From the NCBI GenBank assembly GCA_035571835.1, contig DATNBU010000037.1, positions 140,753 through 204,752 of the forward strand: 64,000 bases of DNA. Reading direction: 5' to 3'. The position numbers were made by a program, and so were the translations under genes. The stretch comes from Candidatus Limnocylindrales bacterium. Its GTDB lineage: Bacteria > Desulfobacterota > Binatia > UBA1149 > CAITLU01. Below are positions 1-63,121 of the stretch, piece after piece. Under the pieces are notes generated by a model. It was given only the letters and a program-made list of their open reading frames with translations. It was not told where the DNA came from and did not search any database. Each line of letters starts with the position of its first letter. The first letter of the stretch is position 1.

Positions 1-1876
1 AAAGCTCGACGCCCGAACGCAGAACGTGGTCGCCGCAATACGTAAATCTGCAATTTTTGCAGCCGTCGGTCGGATCGAAGTTTCCGTCGTCGCACTGCTC
101 GCCGGCGTTCACGTATCCGTCACCGCAGGAGACGGGCTGGCAGCTTCCCGGGCAGTCGTCGCTCTCTTCGCCGTTGCCGTCGTCGCATGCCTCGGTCCAG
201 ACGTCGCGCTCGCCGTCGCCGCAGCGCGACAGTCCGCAATTGGCAGAACAGGTGTGATTATCGATGAGCTCGAGGCCGTCGCACTCTTCGCCTTCTTCGA
301 CGACTTCGTTACCGCACGACGCAGGCATGCAGTCGGAGTTGCAGCCGTCGCCGTCGATCGCATTGCCGTCGTCGCATTGTTCTCCGATCTCAACGGTGCC
401 GTTGCCGCACCGCAGACCAGCCACCGCAACATGAACTTCGGCTTCCTGAGAGTTCCAGTACCACATGGTCTCCGCCGGCAGAGTGCTCCACGCCACGGTC
501 CAGCGGCCGGCCGAGTCTCCGGCAGCGAATGGTGCAAAATCCTGCCGTTCGTCATGGGAGGCAGCCGGATCGACCGGCGTAGGAGCGGTCCAGCTCAGGC
601 CGTCATCTGCAGAGATCGACGATACGATGTAGGCGGGCGCGCCCCGGCGCCATCCGAGCGAAACGCGCGAAGACCAGACGGCCAGGACGTGTCCTTTGCC
701 ATCGGTCGCCAGCGACGGAGTCAGGTCGTCGCGGTCGTCGTCTTCGACGTAGGCGCCGAGCGGCTGCGGCTCGCCCCAACTCTGACCGTTGTCGCCGGAT
801 CGCGAGAAGTAGATGTCGCTGTCGGTGCCGTACTGCTCACCCGGCAATTCTTCTTCCCATGCCACGAGCCAGGCACCGGAGGCCGTTGTTGCGAGAGACG
901 GTCCTCCGTAGGCAAACCAGTCCGGACGCCGAAGCGGATCGGCGGACCCCGGCGGCGTGATCGGATGGAGAACCCACGGAGACGCGGCGTCCGCGGCGCG
1001 CGCGACTCGAAGAGCGCCGTCATGTTCACCGCGCCACGCAAGGCCCCAACTGCCGTCGGCCCCGCTTGCCGCGACGAGCGGGTGGCGCGATCCGATATCC
1101 TCCGTGAATTCACTGCCGCCTAGAACAACTTCCTCGGACCATACTTCAGCGCCTTCGGTCCACGTTCGACCGTCGTCAAAAGAGTAATAGACGATGATGC
1201 TCGTCTTGCGATTGTTGTGGCAGCATTCGGGTGGCGTGTCGGTCTGGACAAGCTCACTCTTGATCGAGGCCACGATCCAGTTTCCGTTGCCGTCGGAAGC
1301 AACCGCAGCCTGGTGATACTCCGAGTTGCAGTTCCCACACAGGACCGTGCTGATCGCGGTATCGTCGGACCATGTCCTGCCGAAGTCGCTCGATCGACGA
1401 CTGACCAGATGTTCCGCCTGGCCAAGTTCGTAGCCGTCGTCTGTCCTGGCCGATTGCCGGTATAACTCGACTGCGACCGTGGTGCCGGCGCTCGAAACGC
1501 CATCCCATGGCGCCGAGGAGACGATCGCGTCCGCCGGCAATGCGCTGTCCGATGCCGGTGCCCACTGCTGCCCCGCATCGCGCGATGCGTACAGCGAAGA
1601 CACGCCGAGACCGGTGTCGCTGTACCTTCGCACCTGGCGCCAGCGCCGCAGAAGCAGCGCGCCGCTACCGTCGTCCTTGAGGCTGAACAGGCTGGTGTCG
1701 AAGGTTGGCGCTTCAGGAACGTAGCTGCGACCGACGGTGCGCACGTGATTGAAGATCGGCGCATCGACCGACGCGAAAGCAGTGGTGGGATCGGAGCCGG
1801 CGCGTGCGGGCGAGCACGCGGCGATCACCAGGACGGCCGAAAGCGCCAAAAGAAACGATGCGTAACTCCGAAGCAT
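1..1876 (-). CDS. Secreted lipoprotein (partial; C-terminus runs off the window start) with C-terminal Myxococcus-type cysteine-rich DGxCD repeats. It is a paralog of 36270..39488
   Basis: The reverse frame from the ATG at 1876 gives MLRSYASFLLALSAVLVIAACS (lipobox LxxC). The same frame at 60..420 gives CGLSRCGDGERDVWTEACDDGNGEESDDCPGSC..CGDGYVNAGEQCDD repeats. No in-frame stop occurs before position 1. The listed + ORF 26..1123 is its A/V-rich antisense shadow. Confidence 0.6.
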   Translation of the reverse strand, partial: MLRSYASFLLALSAVLVIAACSPARAGSDPTTAFASVDAPIFNHVRTVGRSYVPEAPTFDTSLFSLKDDGSGALLLRRWRQVRRYSDTGLGVSSLYASRDAGQQWAPASDSALPADAIVSSAPWDGVSSAGTTVAVELYRQSARTDDGYELGQAEHLVSRRSSDFGRTWSDDTAISTVLCGNCNSEYHQAAVASDGNGNWIVASIKSELVQTDTPPECCHNNRKTSIIVYYSFDDGRTWTEGAEVWSEEVVLGGSEFTEDIGSRHPLVAASGADGSWGLAWRGEHDGALRVARAADAASPWVLHPITPPGSADPLRRPDWFAYGGPSLATTASGAWLVAWEEELPGEQYGTDSDIYFSRSGDNGQSWGEPQPLGAYVEDDDRDDLTPSLATDGKGHVLAVWSSRVSLGWRRGAPAYIVSSISADDGLSWTAPTPVDPAASHDERQDFAPFAAGDSAGRWTVAWSTLPAETMWYWNSQEAEVHVAVAGLRCGNGTVEIGEQCDDGNAIDGDGCNSDCMPASCGNEVVEEGEECDGLELIDNHTCSANCGLSRCGDGERDVWTEACDDGNGEESDDCPGSCQPVSCGDGYVNAGEQCDDGNFDPTDGCKNCRFTYCGDHVLRSGVEL

Positions 1877-2053: not shown

Positions 2054-4558
2054 CTACTCGCAGCCGACCGGCTCGTTGCTTTCGTCGACGCCGTTCGGAC
2101 GCACGCCGTAGATCGGCAGCGGACATCCGCGCTCGAGTGCACCCAGATCCGGCGCCGCGCCCTGGAAGTGATCGGTGACGCCGGGAAGCACCGTGCCGGC
2201 ATCGACGGCGTTCGATGCAGCGTCGAGAGTCACATCGGCCGGGCTCAGCGTGAGCGTGTACGACGAAGGCGCGGCAAGACCGTTCGCGAAGATCGGCTCG
2301 GCGAGCAGCGTGCCATTCGTTTCCATCCCGCCGGCCTGCATCGCTGCGAAACTCGCGAAGCTCACCAGATCGCCCGGAGGAAGCCGGAAGCGAAACGCTC
2401 CATCGGGATAGTAACCGTCCGAATCGAACAGGCCGCCAACGATGAGCGCGGTCCAGTCCACCGCCCGACCGGGAAGCATCGACGGCCCGATGAAGAGGTT
2501 GTTGCGGACTTCGAAGTTGTGACTGGCCACTTCGGTGTACACGTGCAGCTCTTCGTCAGAAGTCACGAAAGTGTTGTTGTACGCGAGCACGCCGCTCGGA
2601 CCGAACTCCTGGCCGTTCCCGTGAAACTTCATCTGCTCGTCGGCGATGTTGACGACGACGTTGCGCAGCGCATACGCAGGCCCGCCGTAGATCGGCTGGA
2701 AGCTGATGGTCGAAAACGTATTCGTGAAGCGGTTGCGCCACGCACGCACGTTGCCTTCGCCGCCGTCGAGCTCGACGCCGTTGTCGTATGCCGACAGCAC
2801 TTCGTTGCCGTAGAAATCAACGGCGCGCGCGCCCGGCAGCTCGGTCTTCATCGCATCGCCGAAGCCGATGATCTGGTTGTGGCAGACCACGTGGCCATGG
2901 CCCTGCACGTTGATCCCGTCGTCGTTCGCGTTGTCGCCGCCGTTGTCGGTGTAGACCTCGGGCCACACGAGGCGGCCTTCGAGCACGTTGTCGCAGATGT
3001 AGAAGTCGTACTGGACCTCGCGCGTGGCGATGCCGAGCGTCGTGTCGATCGTGTGCACCCTGCGCACGACGTCTTCCACCGCGCCGGCCGTCTGGAAACG
3101 CAGCGCGCGGCTCGCGTTGCGCAGCGTCAGGTTCTCGACGTGCACGTAGCTGCCGTAGACCTCGAGCACGTTGCAGCCGGTACAGCCGCCGCCGTCGAGG
3201 ATGGTTCCGTCGCGGCTGGTGCCGCGGACCACGATCGGATTGTCCGCCGTTCCGCCGAAGTCGAGCACGAAAAGCCCGTTGTACGTGCCGTCGGCGAGCG
3301 TGATGACATCGCCGGCGGTTGCGGCATCGAGTGCCGCCTGAAGCTGCGTCGCATTGCTGACGGCAACGGAGTGCGGCGAGACCGGATCGGCCGGAACCGC
3401 GCGGGTCGTCGCCGTGAGCGTGATCGTGTCGTCGACCGGGCCGTCGGCGTCGACCATGTGAAGCTCGAGCTCGTATTCGGTCGCGGGCCGAAGGTCGAAG
3501 ATGCTGCCGGCAAACTGCTCGACGATGACGTTGTCGTCTCCCGACGGCACGGTCTCTGGCAGCACGCGCAGCAGCGGCAGCGCGTCGTTCCACGTGAGCG
3601 CGCCGGTTTCGCGATAGCGAAGCGAAACGGTCGCGTCGCGGTCCGCGTCGCCCGTGATCGGAAGCTGCACGCCGAGCGCCATCAGCGTGGGCCTGTCGAG
3701 CACTGCGGTTCCCGCGTGAAGCACCGGATCGGGACACGGATAGAACGCTTCGTTGCGTGCATCGAGCCGGTCGATGGTATCTTCGCAAAGCGCGACGAGC
3801 GCCGCCGAATCGAGGCACGACGGGCAGGTGCCCGCGACGAGCAGCCGCGACGTGACGGTGGCGTATTTCGAGCGCGCCTTGTTCTCGCAGCCTTCTTCGT
3901 CAAACGGCGGATCGTGCAGCGTGAGGCCCGACGACGCGGCTTTCTGATGGCACTTGACCACCGACTTCGCGAGCTTGGACAGGGAGAGACTGACGCGTCT
4001 CGTGCACGCGAGCGCATCGCTCGTAGCGGGAACGCTGCCGGCGTCGTCGCCGGACGGATCGAGCGACGCACCGCTGGTCGCGTCGCAGTACACATCGGCG
4101 CCGCGCGCATCGAGAGTGGTTTCGAGCGACGACGCTTCGCCTGACAGCAGCGACGGCACCGTGCTCGACGCGCATCCCGAGCTCGCCTCGAGATCGCCGA
4201 CCGCGCCGTCGAGAGCCGTGAGCGCATCGGCCTCGCACGCCTCTTCGTCGAACGACGACGGGTTGCCGAGGACGACTTCCGAATAGCGCGCGGCAGCGAG
4301 AGCGATATGGCACTTGCCGATCGCGCTCTCGAGCTTCGAGTAGGCGCCTGCCGCCGAATCCGAGCAGCGGCGAACGTCGGAACCGAGCGGCACGCATCCA
4401 CTGTCGTTGCCGCCGAACGGCTCGCCCGGACCAGGGCCGGGTGCAGCCGATGAAACCGCAGCGGCCAAAGAAACCGCAGCACTGAGCGCGAGTGAGAATG
4501 CGGCGAGACGTGCCGCCGGCCAACGTGGTGAAAACATATGCTGGCGCTCCCCCGCCAT
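2054..4558 (-). CDS. Secreted right-handed parallel beta-helix repeat protein (pectin-lyase fold-like) with three N-terminal ~60-aa Cys-containing repeats
   Basis: Signal peptide RLAAFSLALSAAVSLAAAVSSA. Beta-helix region NATQLQAALDAATAGDVITLADGTYNG...NVQGHGHVVCHNQIIGFGD...YGNEVLSAYDNGVELDGG. Repeats KLESAIGKCH.../KLAKSVVKCHQK... Confidence 0.7.
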   Translation of the reverse strand: MAGERQHMFSPRWPAARLAAFSLALSAAVSLAAAVSSAAPGPGPGEPFGGNDSGCVPLGSDVRRCSDSAAGAYSKLESAIGKCHIALAAARYSEVVLGNPSSFDEEACEADALTALDGAVGDLEASSGCASSTVPSLLSGEASSLETTLDARGADVYCDATSGASLDPSGDDAGSVPATSDALACTRRVSLSLSKLAKSVVKCHQKAASSGLTLHDPPFDEEGCENKARSKYATVTSRLLVAGTCPSCLDSAALVALCEDTIDRLDARNEAFYPCPDPVLHAGTAVLDRPTLMALGVQLPITGDADRDATVSLRYRETGALTWNDALPLLRVLPETVPSGDDNVIVEQFAGSIFDLRPATEYELELHMVDADGPVDDTITLTATTRAVPADPVSPHSVAVSNATQLQAALDAATAGDVITLADGTYNGLFVLDFGGTADNPIVVRGTSRDGTILDGGGCTGCNVLEVYGSYVHVENLTLRNASRALRFQTAGAVEDVVRRVHTIDTTLGIATREVQYDFYICDNVLEGRLVWPEVYTDNGGDNANDDGINVQGHGHVVCHNQIIGFGDAMKTELPGARAVDFYGNEVLSAYDNGVELDGGEGNVRAWRNRFTNTFSTISFQPIYGGPAYALRNVVVNIADEQMKFHGNGQEFGPSGVLAYNNTFVTSDEELHVYTEVASHNFEVRNNLFIGPSMLPGRAVDWTALIVGGLFDSDGYYPDGAFRFRLPPGDLVSFASFAAMQAGGMETNGTLLAEPIFANGLAAPSSYTLTLSPADVTLDAASNAVDAGTVLPGVTDHFQGAAPDLGALERGCPLPIYGVRPNGVDESNEPVGCE

Positions 4559-8428: not shown

Positions 8429-8540
8429 AAATCGGGGACAGACACCGATTACGCGAAATCGGGGACAGACACCGATTAACCGAAATCAGTGTCTGTCCCC
8501 GAATAGTGGAAATCAGTGTCTGTCCCCGATTAACCCCGAT
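8429..8540. repeat. Four copies of a ~25-bp palindromic unit AAATCGGGGACAGACACCGATTA (two direct, then two inverted), followed by GGGACAG hairpins through ~8634
   Basis: Direct reading: aaatcggggacagacaccgattacgcgaaatcggggacagacaccgattaaccgaaatcagtgtctgtccccgaatagtggaaatcagtgtctgtccccgattaa. Each unit has an AATCGG/CCGATT stem. The same unit recurs at 63030..63108. Confidence 0.8.
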
Positions 8541-8639
8541 TAAATAAAAACGGGACAGATCCGGTTTTGGTTTCCGGAGCTGTCCCGTTCTTTGTCGCGG
8601 GTCGGTGCGCGGTGAGTCCGGGGCTGTCCCGGGTTTCGA

Positions 8640-54323: not shown

Positions 54324-54980
54324 TCAACGCGTAGCTTCGACGATGTGGCCCCACACGGAAAGGTAGCGGGCTTTCGGCGGAAAGCTCCGAAACTCGAAGC
54401 GCGAAAACCCCGCGCGGTTAAAGGCGTCCGCGAGCTCGGGCGCCGTATAGAGATTCGAAGCCCACCAGCGACCGATCAGCATTCGTGTCAGCGGATTTCG
54501 CCGCGTCATGAACAGTACCAGCGTGCCGCCGTCGTTGAGCCTCGCGCGCAATCCGGTAAGCGCAGCGGCGATCGTATCGCGCGGCACGTACTCGAGCATC
54601 GATGCGGAGACGATCAGATCGTAGTCGCACCAGTCGTCAGGCAATGCGCCAAGCTCGAGCACGTTGGCTTCGGCCAGCTCGATGTCGCGCATGCCGCGCC
54701 TGCGCATGTTTTCGCAAAGGGCATCGAGCATCGCCGGCGTCAGGTCGAAAGCGTGAAACGCGGCGGGCGTGCAGCCACGCCGGTCGAGCGCACCGCGAAG
54801 TGCGAGCGTCAGCGCGCCGGTGCCGCATCCGGCATCGAGAATGCGGAGGTCTGGGCGCACGAGCGCCGAATGCTCGAAGAACGCCCGCAGTCCCTGCGGA
54901 TACCGCATCGCACGGATGAAGCGGGAGTAGGCTTTCTGCCGGCCGGTAAAGAACTCTCGCGCGTCGGCTGTGACGCTCAC
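54324..54980 (-). CDS. Class I SAM-dependent methyltransferase
   Basis: Motif I ILDAGCGTGALT; its GTG start overlaps the TGA of the extended ArsM-like ORF (GTGA). Confidence 0.7.
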   Translation of the reverse strand: MSVTADAREFFTGRQKAYSRFIRAMRYPQGLRAFFEHSALVRPDLRILDAGCGTGALTLALRGALDRRGCTPAAFHAFDLTPAMLDALCENMRRRGMRDIELAEANVLELGALPDDWCDYDLIVSASMLEYVPRDTIAAALTGLRARLNDGGTLVLFMTRRNPLTRMLIGRWWASNLYTAPELADAFNRAGFSRFEFRSFPPKARYLSVWGHIVEATR

Positions 54981-55732
54981 GAATCAGCCTTCGGTTTGCG
55001 CGCCGTGAAGAGCCCGCCCTGCGTCGACGGTGAAGTTCGATAGCCCGTCCAGCCGTGAAACGTGGCTTCGCAGAATCCGGCGTCGCTGAGCATTTTCAGG
55101 AGCGACCGCTCCCAGATTGCGCCTGCAATTCAAGCGGACCAGGCGCCTTTCTGCGAGACCTCTTCTGGAGTGACACCGTCTTCGAGCAGCATGTCGGCCA
55201 TCTGGATGCGGCCGCCGGGGCGCAGCACGCGGAACGCTTCGGCGAGCACTTTCGGCTTGTCGAGACAGAGGTTGAAGACGCCGTTGGAAACCACCACGTC
55301 GACGGATGCGTCGTCGAGCGAAAGGTCGTCGATCTCACCGATGCGGAACTCGACGTTCGCGGAGCCGGCCGCGCGCGCGTTGCGCCGGGCCTTCTCGACC
55401 ATCTCCACTCCGAAATCGATGCCGATCACGCGGCCTTCCGGCGCGACGCGGCGCGCGGCAAGGATGCTGTCGAGTCCGGCGCCCGAGCCGAGATCGAGAA
55501 CGATCTCTCCGTTTCTCAGCGGCTGGAGGGCGATTGGGTTTCCTACGCCGGCGAAGGACTCGACGACGGACCGCGGCAGGGCGTCGATCCCCGTGGCATC
55601 GTAGCCGAGCCGCTTCGCACTCTCCGCGCCGACGAGGAACGACTCTTCGCGTTCGGGCGACAGCGCGACCATTGCGAAGCGCTCGCGGATTTCCGCTTTC
55701 AGCCGCGAAGAGTCTTCTCTTTCGTCGTCCAC
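54977..55732 (-). CDS. ArsM-like arsenite S-adenosylmethyltransferase with an in-frame TGA (candidate selenocysteine) at the conserved GC(I/V)AGA cysteine. The listed ORF 55130..55732 is its N-terminal part
   Basis: VLDLGSGAGLD motif I; VDVVVSNGVFNLCLDKPKVLAEAFRVLRPGGR; then ...QKGAWSA-TGA-IAGAIWERSLLKMLSDAGFCEATFHGWTGY continues in the same frame for 50 codons to a TGA that overlaps the next gene's GTG. Confidence 0.5.
55100..55117 (-). other. Candidate bacterial SECIS-like hairpin downstream of the in-frame UGA
   Basis: mRNA UGA-auugcaggcgcaaucu-GGGAGC-GGUC-GCUCCU; 6-7 bp stem with a GGUC apical loop; GU lies 24-25 nt after UGA. Confidence 0.35.
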
Positions 55733-55733
55733 G

Positions 55734-56267
55734 ATGTGTTCATTACGCCGGGACCAGGCTCAAGACGAGCCGGCTTACAGACGATCATCGGAGTCTGCCC
55801 CCACGCGTGGAACAGTCGAGATTTCACGCAAGTCATTGACCGGCAGGCCGCGTTGTTGGACCCTTGCCGCCGTGGCCGTGGCCGTGGCCGTGGCCGTGGC
55901 CGTGGCCGTGGCTCTCGATACACTTGCGTACGCGCGGCGGCTCCGCGAGGCTGGTTTCAGCGAGCAGCAGGCCGAAGGTCAGGCCCAGGCGCTCGCCGCT
56001 GCCATGACCGATACCCTTGCGACCAAGCAGGATCTTCGCGAACTCGACGTACGCTTCGACGCACGGTTTACGGGAATCGAGACTCGTTTCGATGAGCAGG
56101 AAAAGCGGATGGCTATTCGGTTCGACGAGCACGAAAAACGGATCGAGATGCGTTTCGCGGAGCAGTCAGCACGCTTCGATGCCCGCCTTGCCGATCTCGA
56201 ACGTCGCATCACGCTTCGAATGCTGGCCGGAATTGGCGCGGTCTCGGCGCTGGTCAAACTTCTCTGA
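55734..56267 (+). CDS. DUF1640-family coiled-coil protein with a C-terminal TM helix; N-terminal (Ala-Val)7 encoded by a hexanucleotide repeat
   Basis: LDTLAYARRLREAGFSEQQAEGQAQALAAAMTDTLATKQDLRELDVRFDARF matches the DUF1640 pattern. The real start is probably one of the in-frame GTGs within 55869..55910, not the listed upstream start. Confidence 0.55.
   Translation: MCSLRRDQAQDEPAYRRSSESAPTRGTVEISRKSLTGRPRCWTLAAVAVAVAVAVAVAVALDTLAYARRLREAGFSEQQAEGQAQALAAAMTDTLATKQDLRELDVRFDARFTGIETRFDEQEKRMAIRFDEHEKRIEMRFAEQSARFDARLADLERRITLRMLAGIGAVSALVKLL
55869..55910 (+). repeat. Microsatellite (GCCGTG)x7
   Basis: gccgtggccgtggccgtggccgtggccgtggccgtggccgtg. In frame it encodes (AV)7; on the opposite strand it gives (HG)n. 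Confidence 0.9.
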
Positions 56268-56296
56268 TTCAAGGGGCGGGGAAAGCCCGCAAAGGC

Positions 56297-56752
56297 TCAG
56301 CCGCCGTTCGATCCGACGAGGATCGCCCGCGCTTCGCTGGCGTCGTGCGACTGCCGGAGCGCTGCGGTCTTGTCCTGGTCGCGAAGGACCCGCGCGATCT
56401 GCGAGACCGCGGTCAGAAGCTCGGCGCTCGGCTCGTCGGGTGCGATGATCGCGCATACGAGGTCGACCGGTCGCGCGTCGTTCGACTCGAAACCGATCGG
56501 CGACAGCAGCCGAAGGAAGACTGCGTGCGTCTTCGCGAGCCGGTGCAGCCTGGCGTGCGGCAGAGCGATTCCCCCGCCGACTCCCGTCGACCCGAGCGCC
56601 TCGCGTGCGAGCAGCGCTCCCTCGACGACGTCGCTCGGCATGCCTGCCTCGGACGCCAGCAGACTTGCCGCGTGCGCGATGGCACGCGGCTTGTCGGTCA
56701 GGGTGAGGTCGAGGGACACGGAATCGGGGGTCAGCACTTGTTCAAGATTCAT
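56297..56752 (-). CDS. PTS EIIA-type-2 (PtsN/EIIA-Ntr-like) regulatory protein
   Basis: GIALPHAR active-site motif; 151 aa. Confidence 0.7.
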   Translation of the reverse strand: MNLEQVLTPDSVSLDLTLTDKPRAIAHAASLLASEAGMPSDVVEGALLAREALGSTGVGGGIALPHARLHRLAKTHAVFLRLLSPIGFESNDARPVDLVCAIIAPDEPSAELLTAVSQIARVLRDQDKTAALRQSHDASEARAILVGSNGG

Positions 56753-56896: not shown

Positions 56897-58222
56897 ATGA
56901 ACGCCGACCTTCGCGCAAAGACCATTTCGGCCGATGAGGCCGCCGAGCTCGTAAAATCGGGAGACTGGGTCGACTTCGGTGCCGGCCTGTCCCAGCCCGA
57001 CCTGTTCGATGAAGCTCTCGCACGTCGCAAGGACGCGCTGCGTGGCGTTCGAATTCGAGCCTGCGTCACAATGTCGCCGCGGGCGGTTCTCGAATCGGAC
57101 CCGACCGGCGAACATTTCCTGTGGTTCAACTGGCACTTCTCCGGCCACGACCGGGGCAGCAATACGGGTGGCCGGTGCAACTACATCCCGATGAATTTCG
57201 GCGAGGCGCCCGACTACTATCGCCGTTTCCTCGACCCCGTCGACGTGGCCTGCATCAAGACCACTGCGATCGACGAGGACGGGTGGTTCAACTACGCAGC
57301 CACCAACGCGAACACCGACGCCATCCTCGAGCGCGCGAAGGTCATCATCGTCGAGACCTCGACTGCGATGCCGCACGTCCGGAGCGACGGTGGAAGAATC
57401 CATCTCCGTGACGTCCACTACGTGATCGACGGCGGCGAGAACCCGCTTCCCGAGCTCGCCAACCCGCCGGTCACCGAAGTGGACCACCGCGTGGCCACCC
57501 TCATCGCCGAGCAGATCGACGACGGCGCCTGCCTGCAGATCGGCATCGGCGGCATGCCGAACGCCGTCTGCCTGTTGCTGAAGGATGCCGGCCTCGAGGA
57601 TCTCGGCATTCATACCGAGATGTTCGTCGACGGCATGGTGGATCTCATCGAGTCGGGCGTCGCCAACGGCGCGCGCAAACAGATGAACAAGGGCGAGGCC
57701 GTCTTCACTTTTGCCGGCGGCTCGCGCCATTCGTACGATTTCCTCGACCGAAACCCGTCGGTTCGAAGCTGCCCTGTCGACTATACGAACCTTCCCGACC
57801 AGATCGCGCGCAACGACCGCGTGGTCTCGATCAACAACACCACGCAGATCGACCTGCAGGGCCAGGCCGCCTCCGAATCCGACGGCCACCGCCACCTGAC
57901 CGGCACCGGAGGCCAGCTCCAGTTCGTCCGCGGTGCCTACGCCTCCAAAGGCGGAAAATCTTTCCTGTGCCTCGCATCCACCTACGAACGCCACGGCGTC
58001 AGGAGAAGCCGCATCGTCACCGCGCTGACCCCCGGCAACATCGTCACAACCCCGCGCACCGACGTCATGCACGTCGTAACCGAATACGGCAGCGTCTGCC
58101 TCAAAGGAAAGTCCGTCGCCGAACGCGCCACAGCGCTGATCGCCCTGGCCCACCCCGACTACAGAGAAGAACTGGAACGCGAAGCCAGACAGCAAGGCAT
58201 GATCCCGAAGCACTTCTTCTGA
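56897..58222 (+). CDS. Acetyl-CoA hydrolase/transferase family protein (4-hydroxybutyrate/butyryl-CoA transferase-like)
   Basis: 441 aa; full-length family similarity (IGIGGMPNAV, GGQLQFVRGA). Confidence 0.8.
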   Translation: MNADLRAKTISADEAAELVKSGDWVDFGAGLSQPDLFDEALARRKDALRGVRIRACVTMSPRAVLESDPTGEHFLWFNWHFSGHDRGSNTGGRCNYIPMNFGEAPDYYRRFLDPVDVACIKTTAIDEDGWFNYAATNANTDAILERAKVIIVETSTAMPHVRSDGGRIHLRDVHYVIDGGENPLPELANPPVTEVDHRVATLIAEQIDDGACLQIGIGGMPNAVCLLLKDAGLEDLGIHTEMFVDGMVDLIESGVANGARKQMNKGEAVFTFAGGSRHSYDFLDRNPSVRSCPVDYTNLPDQIARNDRVVSINNTTQIDLQGQAASESDGHRHLTGTGGQLQFVRGAYASKGGKSFLCLASTYERHGVRRSRIVTALTPGNIVTTPRTDVMHVVTEYGSVCLKGKSVAERATALIALAHPDYREELEREARQQGMIPKHFF

Positions 58223-62931: not shown

Positions 62932-63029
62932 GATCGAGCTGTTCTCCCGCAAATGAAGTGGTTCGGACCGCCCGTGTGTAGCCCGGAGGGCCGTCCGGCG
63001 GAAATCCAAACGATCGTTTGTCTCGCCGG

Positions 63030-63108
63030 AAATCGGGGACAGACACCGATTTCCCGAAACCCGGGACAGACACCGATTTCCCGAATTCGGGGTCTGACCC
63101 CGATTTCC
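63030..63108. repeat. Three direct copies of a ~27-bp unit A(A/T)(A/T)(T/C)CGGGGACAGACACCGATTTCCCG, the same unit as at 8429..8540
   Basis: aaatcggggacagacaccgatttcccgaaacccgggacagacaccgatttcccgaattcggggtctgaccccgatttcc. Confidence 0.8.
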
Positions 63109-63121
63109 TCAAAACCGCGAG

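What the first reader, a model, noticed from the sequence alone, without database searches (positions are those of the whole stretch)
55869..55910. (GCCGTG)7 microsatellite that forms the start region of a DUF1640 gene (every repeat carries an in-frame GTG)
A perfect 42-bp hexanucleotide repeat encodes (Ala-Val)7 directly before the conserved DUF1640 N-terminus (LDTLAYARRLREAGF...). The listed ORF begins about 135 nt further upstream. Family members normally start just before this region, so the true initiation codon is probably one of the seven in-frame GTGs. Slipped-strand changes in copy number would alter N-terminal length and the spacing of the start to upstream promoter elements shared with the divergent ArsM-like gene, without breaking the frame. 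The antisense ORF 55833..56132 with an (HG)n run is its mirror image.
Basis: partly seen in the sequence, partly recalled or inferred. Interest (0 to 1): 0.5.

Follow-up and report, generated by a model that had tools for sequence, protein, structure and literature searches.

The report
Start-codon microsatellite on a small membrane-protein gene
A perfect 44-base run of GCCGTG has grown out of the start codon of a small coiled-coil membrane-protein gene in an uncultured bacterium; it is real and probably varies in length between populations, but nothing shows that it acts as a genetic switch.

Summary
(GCCGTG)7 plus GC lies at 55869-55912, is perfect, and is in frame (Ala-Val)n with a DUF1640/CCDC90-like gene. 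The next-longest perfect repeat in the window is 16 bp.

The ORF listed from ATG 55734 is over-extended. 88 of 115 homologues begin M-A-[IVL]-A-L-D-T-L, which corresponds to the sixth GTG (55902). The upstream 135 nt does not have a coding composition.

New here is a promoter-like layout, TTGACC-17 nt-GACCCT-7 nt, ending just before the first GTG (55872). It recurs in about five of 13 family loci, where the start codon sits at the predicted transcript start. Other genes in the window show the same leaderless layout. The tract therefore lies downstream of the promoter, and copy number does not change promoter spacing to the first GTG. It changes either the N-terminal (Ala-Val)n length or an SD-less, hairpin-forming leader.

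Copy number:
- 7 in the source assembly.
- At least 6 in a second sample.

Verdict: a recently expanded, frame-safe slippage tract. Function as a switch is unproven.

The parts
55869..55912 (+). Perfect hexanucleotide microsatellite (GCCGTG)7 + GC. It contains seven in-frame GTG codons and no A.
55836..55841 (+). -35-like hexamer TTGACC, part of the conserved CATTGAC motif.
   Evidence: The same motif lies at the same distance from the start codon in L002, L006 and L011, with TTGCAT in L014. It is the only TTGNNN-16..18-NANNNT match in 55700-55880 on either strand.
55859..55864 (+). -10-like hexamer GACCCT (A at position 2, T at position 6), 17 nt after the -35 and 7 nt before the first GTG.
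   Evidence: The hexamer is GACCCT in L002, GACCAT in L006, GACGGT in L011 and GATCCT in L014, each 6-9 nt before the start codon.
55872..55874 (+). First GTG of the tract: the predicted 5' end of a leaderless mRNA and the predicted start codon in the 7-unit allele. The product would be 131 aa, M(AV)6ALDTL...
   Evidence: Inferred from promoter geometry and from leaderless-type genes elsewhere in the window. No transcript-start data exist.
55902..55904 (+). Sixth GTG: the start codon homologous to that of family members (M-A-V-A-L-D-T-L, 121 aa).
   Evidence: The JGI product P0001 is exactly this 121-aa sequence.
55902..56267 (+). Conserved body of the DUF1640/CCDC90-like gene, stop codon included.
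   Evidence: 322 homologues. Pfam PF07798 E = 4.5e-5, 23.8 bits, below the 33.5-bit cut-off. AlphaFold2 model: helix-loop-long helix, pLDDT 89.
56016..56033 (+). L-A-T-K-Q-D, the beta-layer motif [aliphatic]-A-T-K-[polar]-[DE] described for DUF1640 membrane proteins.
   Evidence: Sequence compared with PMC4786415. The positions are nearly invariant in alignment A1.
56214..56264 (+). C-terminal hydrophobic tail (LRMLAGIGAVSALVKLL), the presumed membrane anchor.
   Evidence: Kyte-Doolittle 19-residue maximum 1.74. The family is described as integral membrane proteins in PMC4786415.
55734..55868 (+). Non-coding upstream part of the listed 177-aa ORF. It holds the promoter; it is not an N-terminal extension.
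   Evidence: Codon-position GC 0.53/0.67/0.58. No homologue aligns to it.
55833..56132 (-). Antisense ORF with an (His-Gly)n run: the reverse-complement reading of the tract, not a gene.
   Evidence: it lies inside the conserved DUF1640 gene on the other strand.
54977..55732 (-). Divergent neighbour: an ArsM-like methyltransferase with an in-frame TGA (probable selenocysteine) at 55130-55132. Context only.

Best explanation
The tract is a recently expanded, length-polymorphic, frame-preserving microsatellite. It grew by replication slippage out of the start region of a small tail-anchored coiled-coil protein gene of the DUF1640/CCDC90-like family.

The ancestral start region was GCC-GTG-GCC-GTG-GC, that is fMet(GTG)-Ala-Val-Ala preceded by GCC. 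That is already two units.

A conserved sigma-70-like promoter (TTGACC-17-GACCCT) ends 7 nt before the first GTG, so the mRNA is probably leaderless and begins at that GTG. Every unit carries an in-frame GTG, and the tract lies wholly downstream of the promoter. Expansion or contraction therefore never moves the first GTG away from the transcript start and never breaks the frame. Each added unit adds Ala-Val to the N-terminus, giving 131 aa with a 15-residue hydrophobic N-terminus at 7 units against 121 aa at 2 units. It also adds to a G.U-containing hairpin at the mRNA 5' end.

Shown: the tract, its frame, the over-extended ORF, the homologous start, and the recurring promoter layout.
Inferred: the leaderless transcript, use of the first GTG, the 2-unit allele, and any effect on expression.

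The most likely biological status is a nearly neutral or mildly hypomorphic slippage product, not a selected switch.
For: The tract is perfect and unique. Homologue N-termini are M-A-[IVL]-A-L-D-T-L in 88 of 115, and none has a dipeptide repeat. The upstream 135 nt looks non-coding.

The promoter layout TTGAC(N)-17/18-GA(N)3T-6..9-start recurs in the window, L002, L006 and L011, and as TTGCAT in L014. That is about five of 13 independent family loci, although the surrounding intergenic sequence is unrelated. L006 starts GCC GTG GCC GTT GCG, an imperfect two-unit state in a relative with 57% protein identity.

Leaderless-type layout is enriched in this genome. TANNNT lies 5-8 nt before a candidate start in 5 of 37 coding-like ORFs, against 0.7% of internal ATG/GTG. 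Several of these start codons are the first in their ORF or precede signal-peptide-like N-termini. The tract contains no A, so it cannot hold a -10 element of its own (sequence).

In the JGI contig from sample 3300045391, the genes upstream of the tract are offset by 53250 and the genes downstream by 53280. The 121-aa gene there starts 140 nt from the methyltransferase start, which is exactly where the first GTG sits in the window. The Logan contigs break 30 nt into the tract from both sides, as expected for k = 31 if the tract is 37 nt or longer.

Literature: a 5'-terminal ATG or GTG is necessary and sufficient for leaderless translation in mycobacteria (PMC4633059). AlphaFold2 models the extension as a simple N-terminal prolongation of helix 1.
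Against: No transcript-start, ribosome-profiling or proteomic data exist for this uncultured organism. The -10-like hexamer GACCCT matches TATAAT only at the two key positions, and the consensus promoter scan found nothing.

Only about five of 13 family loci show the abutting promoter. Others have Shine-Dalgarno leaders, so the family is not uniformly leaderless.

The spacing is 7 nt, which puts the G of the first GTG at the eighth position after the -10. That is within, but not at the centre of, the usual range. In Caulobacter, leaderless GUG starts are much weaker than AUG, and 5' structure lowers initiation (PMC8459731).

The 2-unit allele rests on gene coordinates only. Both metagenome DNA scans and 30 exact-sequence look-ups of synthetic alleles found nothing more.

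A 15-residue hydrophobic N-terminus (Kyte-Doolittle 2.36) might be harmful. That argues for a later start or a poorly functional allele.
Confidence: 0.5

Rival explanations
1. Translation starts at the homologous sixth GTG (55902), or at the sixth or seventh GTG. The five upstream units are then a 30-nt untranslated leader that lacks a Shine-Dalgarno site and folds into a hairpin. Copy number would act as an expression rheostat, with more units giving less protein, as in the Haemophilus hmw1A leader repeat.
For: The sixth GTG gives exactly the family N-terminus. The repeat is quasi-self-complementary: it forms a 20-bp hairpin, and the repeat alone folds at -33 kcal/mol with 7 units against -2.8 with 2. 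One relative (L005) has the same CATTGAC element followed by a leader of about 30 nt with GGAGG. It avoids a strongly hydrophobic N-terminus. hmw1A shows that a transcribed repeat can tune expression through leader structure (PMC12721329).
Against: No Shine-Dalgarno-like sequence is possible inside an A-less tract. All seven GTGs have an identical local context, so nothing singles out the sixth. The first GTG sits at the predicted 5' end, where 70S ribosomes load on leaderless mRNAs (PMC4633059). The computed cost of opening the first 16 nt rises only from 8.9 to 13.2 kcal/mol between 2 and 7 units. That is a modest effect, about 4-fold by the Caulobacter slope.
Confidence: 0.25
2. The tract is a selected contingency locus: a hypermutable site kept by selection so that the population carries variants of this membrane protein with different N-terminal hydrophobic lengths or expression levels.
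For: The tract is a strong outlier for this genome. It sits at the 5' end of a membrane-protein gene. Length appears to differ between samples. The design is frame-safe and regenerates a start codon in every unit.
Against: There is one locus and only three public contigs or contig pairs. No within-sample heterogeneity could be examined. Units of six bases cannot switch the frame, and the tract is not between promoter elements. Coding hexanucleotide repeats are regarded as changing the amino-acid sequence, not giving phase-variable expression (PMC2651432). No relative among 120 inspected has such a repeat, so it is young rather than maintained.
Confidence: 0.12
3. The 177-aa ORF from ATG 55734 is the real protein, and (Ala-Val)7 is an internal linker.
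For: One gene caller chose it for the ENA contig. The frame is open for 89 codons upstream of the first GTG.
Against: No homologue aligns to the first 45 residues, and query coverage stops at 68%. The codon-position GC pattern is non-coding. ATG 55734 lies 1 nt beyond the divergent gene's GTG start codon (55732..55730), leaving no room for promoters. The conserved promoter-like motif would lie inside the coding sequence.
Confidence: 0.03
4. The tract length is an assembly artefact.
For: Tandem repeats can be mis-assembled, and one assembler broke its contigs at this tract.
Against: The 44-nt tract is far shorter than the k = 141 used for the source contig and than typical reads. An independent sample gives flanks with 0 mismatches and at least 30 nt of tract on each side. 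A de Bruijn collapse cannot shorten a tract below k-1, so a 14-nt allele is not a collapse product (inference).
Confidence: 0.02

Closest known systems
Haemophilus influenzae hmw1A/hmw2A (ATCTTTC)n repeat in the transcribed 5' leader (PMC12721329)
   Same: A simple repeat lies downstream of the promoter and at or before the start codon. The repeat is part of an RNA hairpin. Unit number does not break the frame, so the effect is graded rather than on/off.
   Different: In hmw1A the repeat is clearly untranslated and pairs with a separate G-rich arm. It is processed by RNase III, and expression has been measured to be inversely proportional to repeat number. Here the units are self-complementary, each carries a potential start codon in frame with the gene, and no expression data exist.
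In-frame coding hexanucleotide and trinucleotide repeats of bacterial genomes (for example the H. influenzae survey, PMC2651432)
   Same: A unit length that is a multiple of three changes the protein length, not the frame.
   Different: Those tracts are short (a few units) and mostly length-invariant between strains. This one has 7 perfect units, overlaps the start codon, and appears to differ by 5 units between assemblies.
Haemophilus influenzae lic1A (CAAT)n with alternative ATG start codons (my own recollection of Weiser and colleagues; not checked here)
   Same: A repeat at the extreme 5' end of a coding region, combined with several possible initiation codons.
   Different: The tetranucleotide units shift the frame and select which ATG is in frame, giving on/off/intermediate states. 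Here every unit is in frame and every GTG reads the same protein.
Leaderless mRNAs of Mycobacterium, Deinococcus and Caulobacter (PMC4633059, PMC4007540, PMC8459731)
   Same: A promoter -10 element lies 6-8 nt before an ATG/GTG, with no Shine-Dalgarno site. The start codon is at the transcript 5' end.
   Different: This is a prediction from sequence only. The -10 is weak (GACCCT). No described leaderless gene that I know of starts with a microsatellite made of start codons.

Membership tests
DUF1640 / CCDC90-like (Pfam PF07798) | Pfam model score at or above the gathering cut-off | tested here: inconclusive
   23.8 bits (E = 4.5e-5) against a cut-off of 33.5. However, precomputed PF07798 hits are listed for P0001 and most of the 120 listed homologues (322 in all), and one source names a homologue 'CCDC90 family protein'. 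This is a sub-threshold bacterial branch.
DUF1640 / CCDC90-like (Pfam PF07798) | Beta-layer motif [aliphatic]-A-T-K-[polar]-[DE] at the start of the stalk (PMC4786415) | tested here: met
   L-A-T-K-Q-D at 56016-56033, nearly invariant in alignment A1.
DUF1640 / CCDC90-like (Pfam PF07798) | Long coiled-coil stalk ending in a hydrophobic membrane segment | tested here: met
   The AlphaFold2 model has one helix over residues 31-130. The C-terminal 19-residue Kyte-Doolittle maximum is 1.74.
Simple-sequence contingency locus (phase-variable gene) | Long perfect repeat tract in a promoter or at the 5' end of a coding region | tested here: met
Simple-sequence contingency locus (phase-variable gene) | Unit number differs between or within populations | tested here: inconclusive
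   7 units (source), at least 6 (SRR6185369), and a 30-bp shorter spacing in JGI 3300045391 that fits 2 units, with no DNA available. No read-level data.
Simple-sequence contingency locus (phase-variable gene) | A change of unit number switches expression on or off, by frameshift or by altered -35/-10 spacing | tested here: not met
   The unit is 6 nt and in frame. The tract lies downstream of the only promoter-like layout.
Simple-sequence contingency locus (phase-variable gene) | High-frequency reversible switching | not testable with these tools
   Needs cultures or deep read data.
Leaderless mRNA gene | -10 element ending 6-8 nt before the start codon, with a -35 at 16-18 nt | tested here: met
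   TTGACC-17-GACCCT-7-GTG, although the -10 matches the consensus only at positions 2 and 6.
Leaderless mRNA gene | No Shine-Dalgarno sequence before the start | tested here: met
   No GGAG, GAGG, AGGA or GGGG in the 20 nt before 55872. The tract has no A.
Leaderless mRNA gene | Mapped transcript 5' end coincides with ATG/GTG | not testable with these tools
   No transcriptome exists for this organism.
Leaderless mRNA gene | The same architecture in relatives and elsewhere in the genome | tested here: met
   About five of 13 family loci. 5 of 37 coding-like ORFs in the window, against 0.7% of internal ATG/GTG.
Transcribed-leader repeat rheostat (hmw1A type) | Expression inversely related to unit number through leader RNA structure | not testable with these tools
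   Only in-silico folding: the hairpin grows with unit number, and the cost of opening the first 16 nt rises from 8.9 to 13.2 kcal/mol between 2 and 7 units.

The most novel reading that the evidence does not exclude
A microsatellite whose every unit is a start codon plus one codon sits exactly on the transcript start of a leaderless gene. Slippage can then never destroy initiation or the frame. Instead it dials the length of a hydrophobic (Ala-Val)n N-terminus, from none to a membrane-span-like segment, and the stability of a 5' hairpin. This would be a frame-safe, start-regenerating tuning device for the topology or dosage of a membrane protein, maintained by selection in an uncultured lineage.
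Probability: 0.12. Interest if true: 0.6.

Novelty: new variant of a known kind. Interest (0 to 1): 0.35.

Why it matters
In practice it corrects an annotation. The 177-aa ORF should be a 121- to 131-aa protein, and contigs break at this tract in short-k assemblies.

In biology, simple-repeat hypermutable sites are known almost only from host-adapted pathogens. A clear example at the start codon of a probably leaderless gene in an environmental, uncultured bacterium would extend where such sites occur. It would also give a natural series of alleles for asking two questions: how 5' structure affects leaderless translation, and how N-terminal length affects a DUF1640 protein whose bacterial function is unknown. 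The significance is modest unless variation within populations and an effect on expression or topology are demonstrated.

Tried and rejected
- Two whole-collection DNA scans of JGI metagenome contigs found nothing: one with the upstream flank and one with a degenerate repeat/coding junction. The DNA of the shorter JGI allele could therefore not be read.
- Exact look-ups of 30 synthetic alleles found none on record. These were M- and V-initiated forms with 0-10 extra Ala-Val, and the ATG-ORF with 1-11 units except the window's own 7.
- The look-up of the 200-aa methyltransferase product found nothing. This is not evidence of a strain difference, because JGI stores GTG starts as V.
- The look-up of the identical acetyl-CoA hydrolase (P0121, said to lie on a 712-kb NCBI contig) returned only the window's own source contig.
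- The consensus promoter scan found no sigma-70-type site in 55500-56400. It requires 4 of 6 matches per hexamer, and the -10 here has 2 of 6.
- The z-score of the fold against dinucleotide shuffles is not significant (0.54). The hairpin is a property of the repeat unit itself, not evidence of a selected RNA structure.
- CATTGACS is not enriched in the window, so there is no sign of a local regulon.
- Rfam at gathering thresholds found only two tRNAs. NCBIfam has no model for the DUF1640 protein. No solved structure is related by sequence.
- No paralogue of the gene is in the window.
- Rejected readings: the upstream ATG as start, an assembly artefact, and the antisense (His-Gly)n ORF as a gene.

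Full report
**1. Observation**

The window holds a perfect period-6 tract, (GCCGTG)7 followed by GC, at 55869-55912 (Tandem Repeats Finder: 7.3 copies, 100% matches, score 88). It is in frame with ORF 55734-56267 on the + strand. GCC reads as Ala and GTG as Val, and GTG codons lie at 55872, 55878, 55884, 55890, 55896, 55902 and 55908.

The tract is far beyond chance:
- An 18-mer of the repeat is expected 0.03 times in shuffles and occurs only here.
- The next-longest perfect simple repeat in the 64 kb is 16 bp.
- 69 kb of loci fetched from other genomes and contigs contain no perfect repeat of 18 bp or more.

The window is identical to ENA ERZ27256655 contig k141_2050732 (203 kb). An independent sample (Logan SRR6185369) yields two contigs that match the window without a single mismatch. 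Each ends exactly 30 nt inside the tract, one from the left (end at 55898) and one from the right. The tract is therefore real. The antisense (His-Gly)n ORF is just its reverse-complement reading.

**2. The gene and its start**

The ORF matches Pfam CCDC90-like/DUF1640 only below threshold (23.8 bits against 33.5). It nevertheless has 322 clear homologues in public metagenomes and MAGs, labelled Candidatus Binatia, 'Deltaproteobacteria' and similar.

It carries the beta-layer motif L-A-T-K-Q-D that Hartmann et al. describe for DUF1640 membrane proteins (PMC4786415). It also has a hydrophobic C-terminal tail. An AlphaFold2 model (pLDDT 89) is helix-loop-long helix.

Three results show the 177-aa ORF is over-extended and the true start lies inside the tract:
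- Of 115 homologues with the LDTL motif, 88 begin 3-4 residues before it (MAIA 46, MALA 7, VAIA 6, MAVA 5 and others). The rest look like over-extended calls that contain an internal MAIA or VIA. None has a dipeptide repeat.
- No homologue aligns to the first 45 residues of the 177-aa ORF.
- That segment has GC 0.53/0.67/0.58 at codon positions 1/2/3, against 0.74/0.43/0.66 for the gene body and about 0.7/0.45/0.8 for neighbouring genes.

The codon homologous to the family's Met is the sixth GTG (55902). GTG-GCC-GTG-GCT-CTC-GAT then reads M-A-V-A-L-D.

**3. Promoter geometry**

I aligned the DNA upstream of the start codons of 13 independent family loci. A layout recurs in the window, L002, L006 and L011, and in L014 with TTGCAT:

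| Locus | Layout |
|---|---|
| Window | TTGACC-17-GACCCT-7-GTG(55872) |
| L002 | TTGACG-17-GACCCT-6-ATG |
| L006 | TTGACG-18-GACCAT-6-GTG |
| L011 | TTGACC-17-GACGGT-9-ATG |
| L014 | TTGCAT-17-GATCCT-6-ATG |

The general form is (C)ATTGAC(N), 17-18 nt, a hexamer with A at position 2 and T at position 6, then 6-9 nt, then the start codon. The surrounding intergenic sequences are otherwise unrelated. My hand estimate from base composition puts the chance of TTGAC falling within a given 4-nt position range at about 0.0025 per locus.

This is the geometry of a sigma-70-type promoter whose transcript begins at the start codon, that is a leaderless mRNA. Other family loci have ordinary Shine-Dalgarno leaders (L001, L003, L012, L023, L005), so the family is mixed.

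The genome of the window uses the leaderless layout elsewhere. TANNNT lies 5-8 nt before a candidate start in 5 of 37 coding-like ORFs, against 0.7% of internal in-frame ATG/GTG. Examples include the following:
- 4558(-): TTGCCT-17-TAGGGT-6-ATG. This ATG is the first start in its ORF and precedes a signal-peptide-like N-terminus.
- 29130(+): TTGCCA-17-TAGAGT-7-ATG.
- 45264(+): TTGCAT-17-CAATAT-6-ATG.

In the 55700-55880 interval, the DUF1640 layout is the only such match on either strand. The tract contains no A and so cannot hold a -10 element of its own.

**4. Consequences for how the tract works**

The whole tract lies downstream of the promoter, and the promoter-proximal GTG is the first one (55872). 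Copy number therefore cannot change the spacing between promoter and first GTG.

If the mRNA is leaderless, the first GTG is the 5'-terminal codon. In mycobacteria a 5' ATG or GTG is necessary and sufficient for leaderless initiation (PMC4633059). The 7-unit allele would then encode M(AV)6ALDTL... (131 aa), with a 15-residue uncharged hydrophobic N-terminus. Its Kyte-Doolittle 19-residue mean is 2.36, against 0.34 for the 2-unit form and 1.74 for the C-terminal anchor. AlphaFold2 models the extension as a prolongation of helix 1.

The repeat is also quasi-self-complementary, with GGCC blocks separated by G.U pairs:
- At 7 units it forms a 20-bp RNA hairpin.
- The repeat alone folds at -33 kcal/mol with 7 units and -2.8 with 2.
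- As DNA, the top strand folds at -12.8 kcal/mol with 7 units. That would favour slippage.

The computed cost of opening the first 16 nt of a leaderless mRNA rises only from 8.9 kcal/mol (2 units) to 13.2 (7 units) and about 15-16 (8 or more). By the Caulobacter calibration of -0.3 ln units per kcal/mol (PMC8459731), that is roughly a 4-fold drop. This is a dimmer at most, not a switch. In Caulobacter, GUG is also a poor leaderless start.

The main rival is that ribosomes use the sixth GTG. The five upstream units would then be a 30-nt structured leader without a Shine-Dalgarno site. I cannot decide between the two from sequence alone.

**5. Origin**

L006 is a relative with 57% protein identity. 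It starts GCC GTG GCC GTT GCG, an imperfect two-unit version of the same sequence directly after the same promoter. The likely history has three steps:
- A leaderless GTG start preceded by GCC.
- Codons 2-3 as GCC-GTG, giving a perfect 14-nt proto-repeat.
- Slippage up to 7 units in this lineage.

No other family member inspected has a repeat there, so the expansion is young.

**6. Copy-number variation**

Public data hold only three instances of this gene.

- **ENA ERZ27256655 (the window's source):** 7 units.
- **Logan SRR6185369:** both flanking contigs stop 30 nt into the tract. In a k = 31 graph this happens only if 31-mers inside the tract recur. That requires a tract of 37 nt or more, that is at least 6 units, or mixed lengths.
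- **JGI 3300045391:** the 3601-bp contig could not be read as DNA, but its gene table is informative. CrcB, both methyltransferase genes and the 38-aa ORF map to the window with an offset of 53250. The DUF1640 stop and the EIIA gene map with an offset of 53280. The 121-aa product (P0001, identical to the window's last 121 residues, starting VAVALDTL) begins 140 nt from the methyltransferase start, exactly where the first GTG sits in the window.

The simplest reading of the JGI contig is an allele with two units, 30 bp (5 units) shorter, which is the canonical family start. A de Bruijn collapse cannot produce a 14-nt tract. I put this at about 85%, but it is an inference. Two metagenome scans and 30 exact look-ups of synthetic alleles found nothing further.

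**7. Comparison with known systems**

- The tract works most like transcribed or coding simple repeats that do not shift the frame. The hmw1A (ATCTTTC)n leader repeat of Haemophilus tunes expression through an RNA hairpin (PMC12721329).
- In-frame hexanucleotide coding repeats are held to change the amino-acid sequence but not to give phase-variable expression (PMC2651432).
- It fails the defining on/off criterion of a classical contingency locus, because the unit is a multiple of three and the tract is not between promoter elements.
- I know of no described case in which a microsatellite made of start codons sits on the transcript start of a leaderless gene. I therefore call it a new variant of a known kind, with the caveat that the leaderless status is predicted, not measured.

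**8. Verdict**

- Right: the start lies within the tract, the tract is frame-safe, and its length is probably variable.
- Not supported: the idea about promoter spacing and shared promoter elements.

The best explanation is a recent slippage expansion of the start region of a probably leaderless DUF1640 gene. It adds (Ala-Val)n, or a structured leader, without breaking the gene. It is probably nearly neutral or mildly hypomorphic. Interest is moderate to low (0.35). It would rise if within-population length heterogeneity and an effect on expression or topology were shown.

Noticed in passing
window 54977-55732 (-); TGA at 55130-55132; hairpin about 55097-55116 (-): The divergent ArsM-like methyltransferase reads through an in-frame TGA (…KGAWSA-TGA-IAGAIWERS…) to give 251 aa. 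Its best NCBIfam hits are arsenite-methyltransferase selenoprotein families (E = 6e-75, but below their cut-offs because the fused second domain is absent). A 6-7 bp hairpin with a GGUC loop starts about 14 nt after the UGA, resembling a bacterial SECIS element (the loop comparison is from memory). Gene callers split the gene into 200- or 180-aa and 38-aa pieces.
   Followed up: partly
window 8429-8543, 63029-63117, and 55787-55802 (-): Tandem and inverted copies of a 27-nt unit containing GGGGACAGACACCGAT occur 7 times with up to 2 mismatches, against 0.03 expected. They look like REP-type palindromic elements. One degenerate copy lies in the intergenic region just upstream of the DUF1640 promoter.
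   Followed up: partly
window 4558 (-), 7445 (-), 29130 (+), 45264 (+), 46438 (+), 48857 (+), 49955 (-): Several genes have a good -35/-10 pair ending 5-8 nt before the start codon and no Shine-Dalgarno site. This suggests leaderless mRNAs are common in this organism (5 of 37 coding-like ORFs, against 0.7% background).
   Followed up: partly
window 56076-56164 and homologues P0002-P0120: The DUF1640 gene contains a 33-nt (11-residue) imperfect internal repeat. Homologues range from 110 to 184 aa mainly by different numbers of 7- or 11-residue stalk repeats (for example ARFAQVD reiterated), so stalk length is evolutionarily plastic.
   Followed up: no
L005 about 2985-3010 (Candidatus Binatia MAG DASPNH010000141.1): The start region reads ATGGCGATGGCGCTCTGGAT. 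That is (ATGGCG)2 encoding M-A-M-A, then two extra bases (CT) that put the start out of frame with LDTL. It is either a real frameshift at another short repeat or an assembly error.
   Followed up: no
window 56897-58222 (+): An identical acetyl-CoA hydrolase/transferase protein (P0121) is on record from an NCBI TPA MAG labelled 'Candidatus Limn…' (name truncated in the output) on a 712-kb contig. Proteins at 76% identity and below are labelled Candidatus Binatia. The taxonomic label of the source organism is therefore uncertain.
   Followed up: partly
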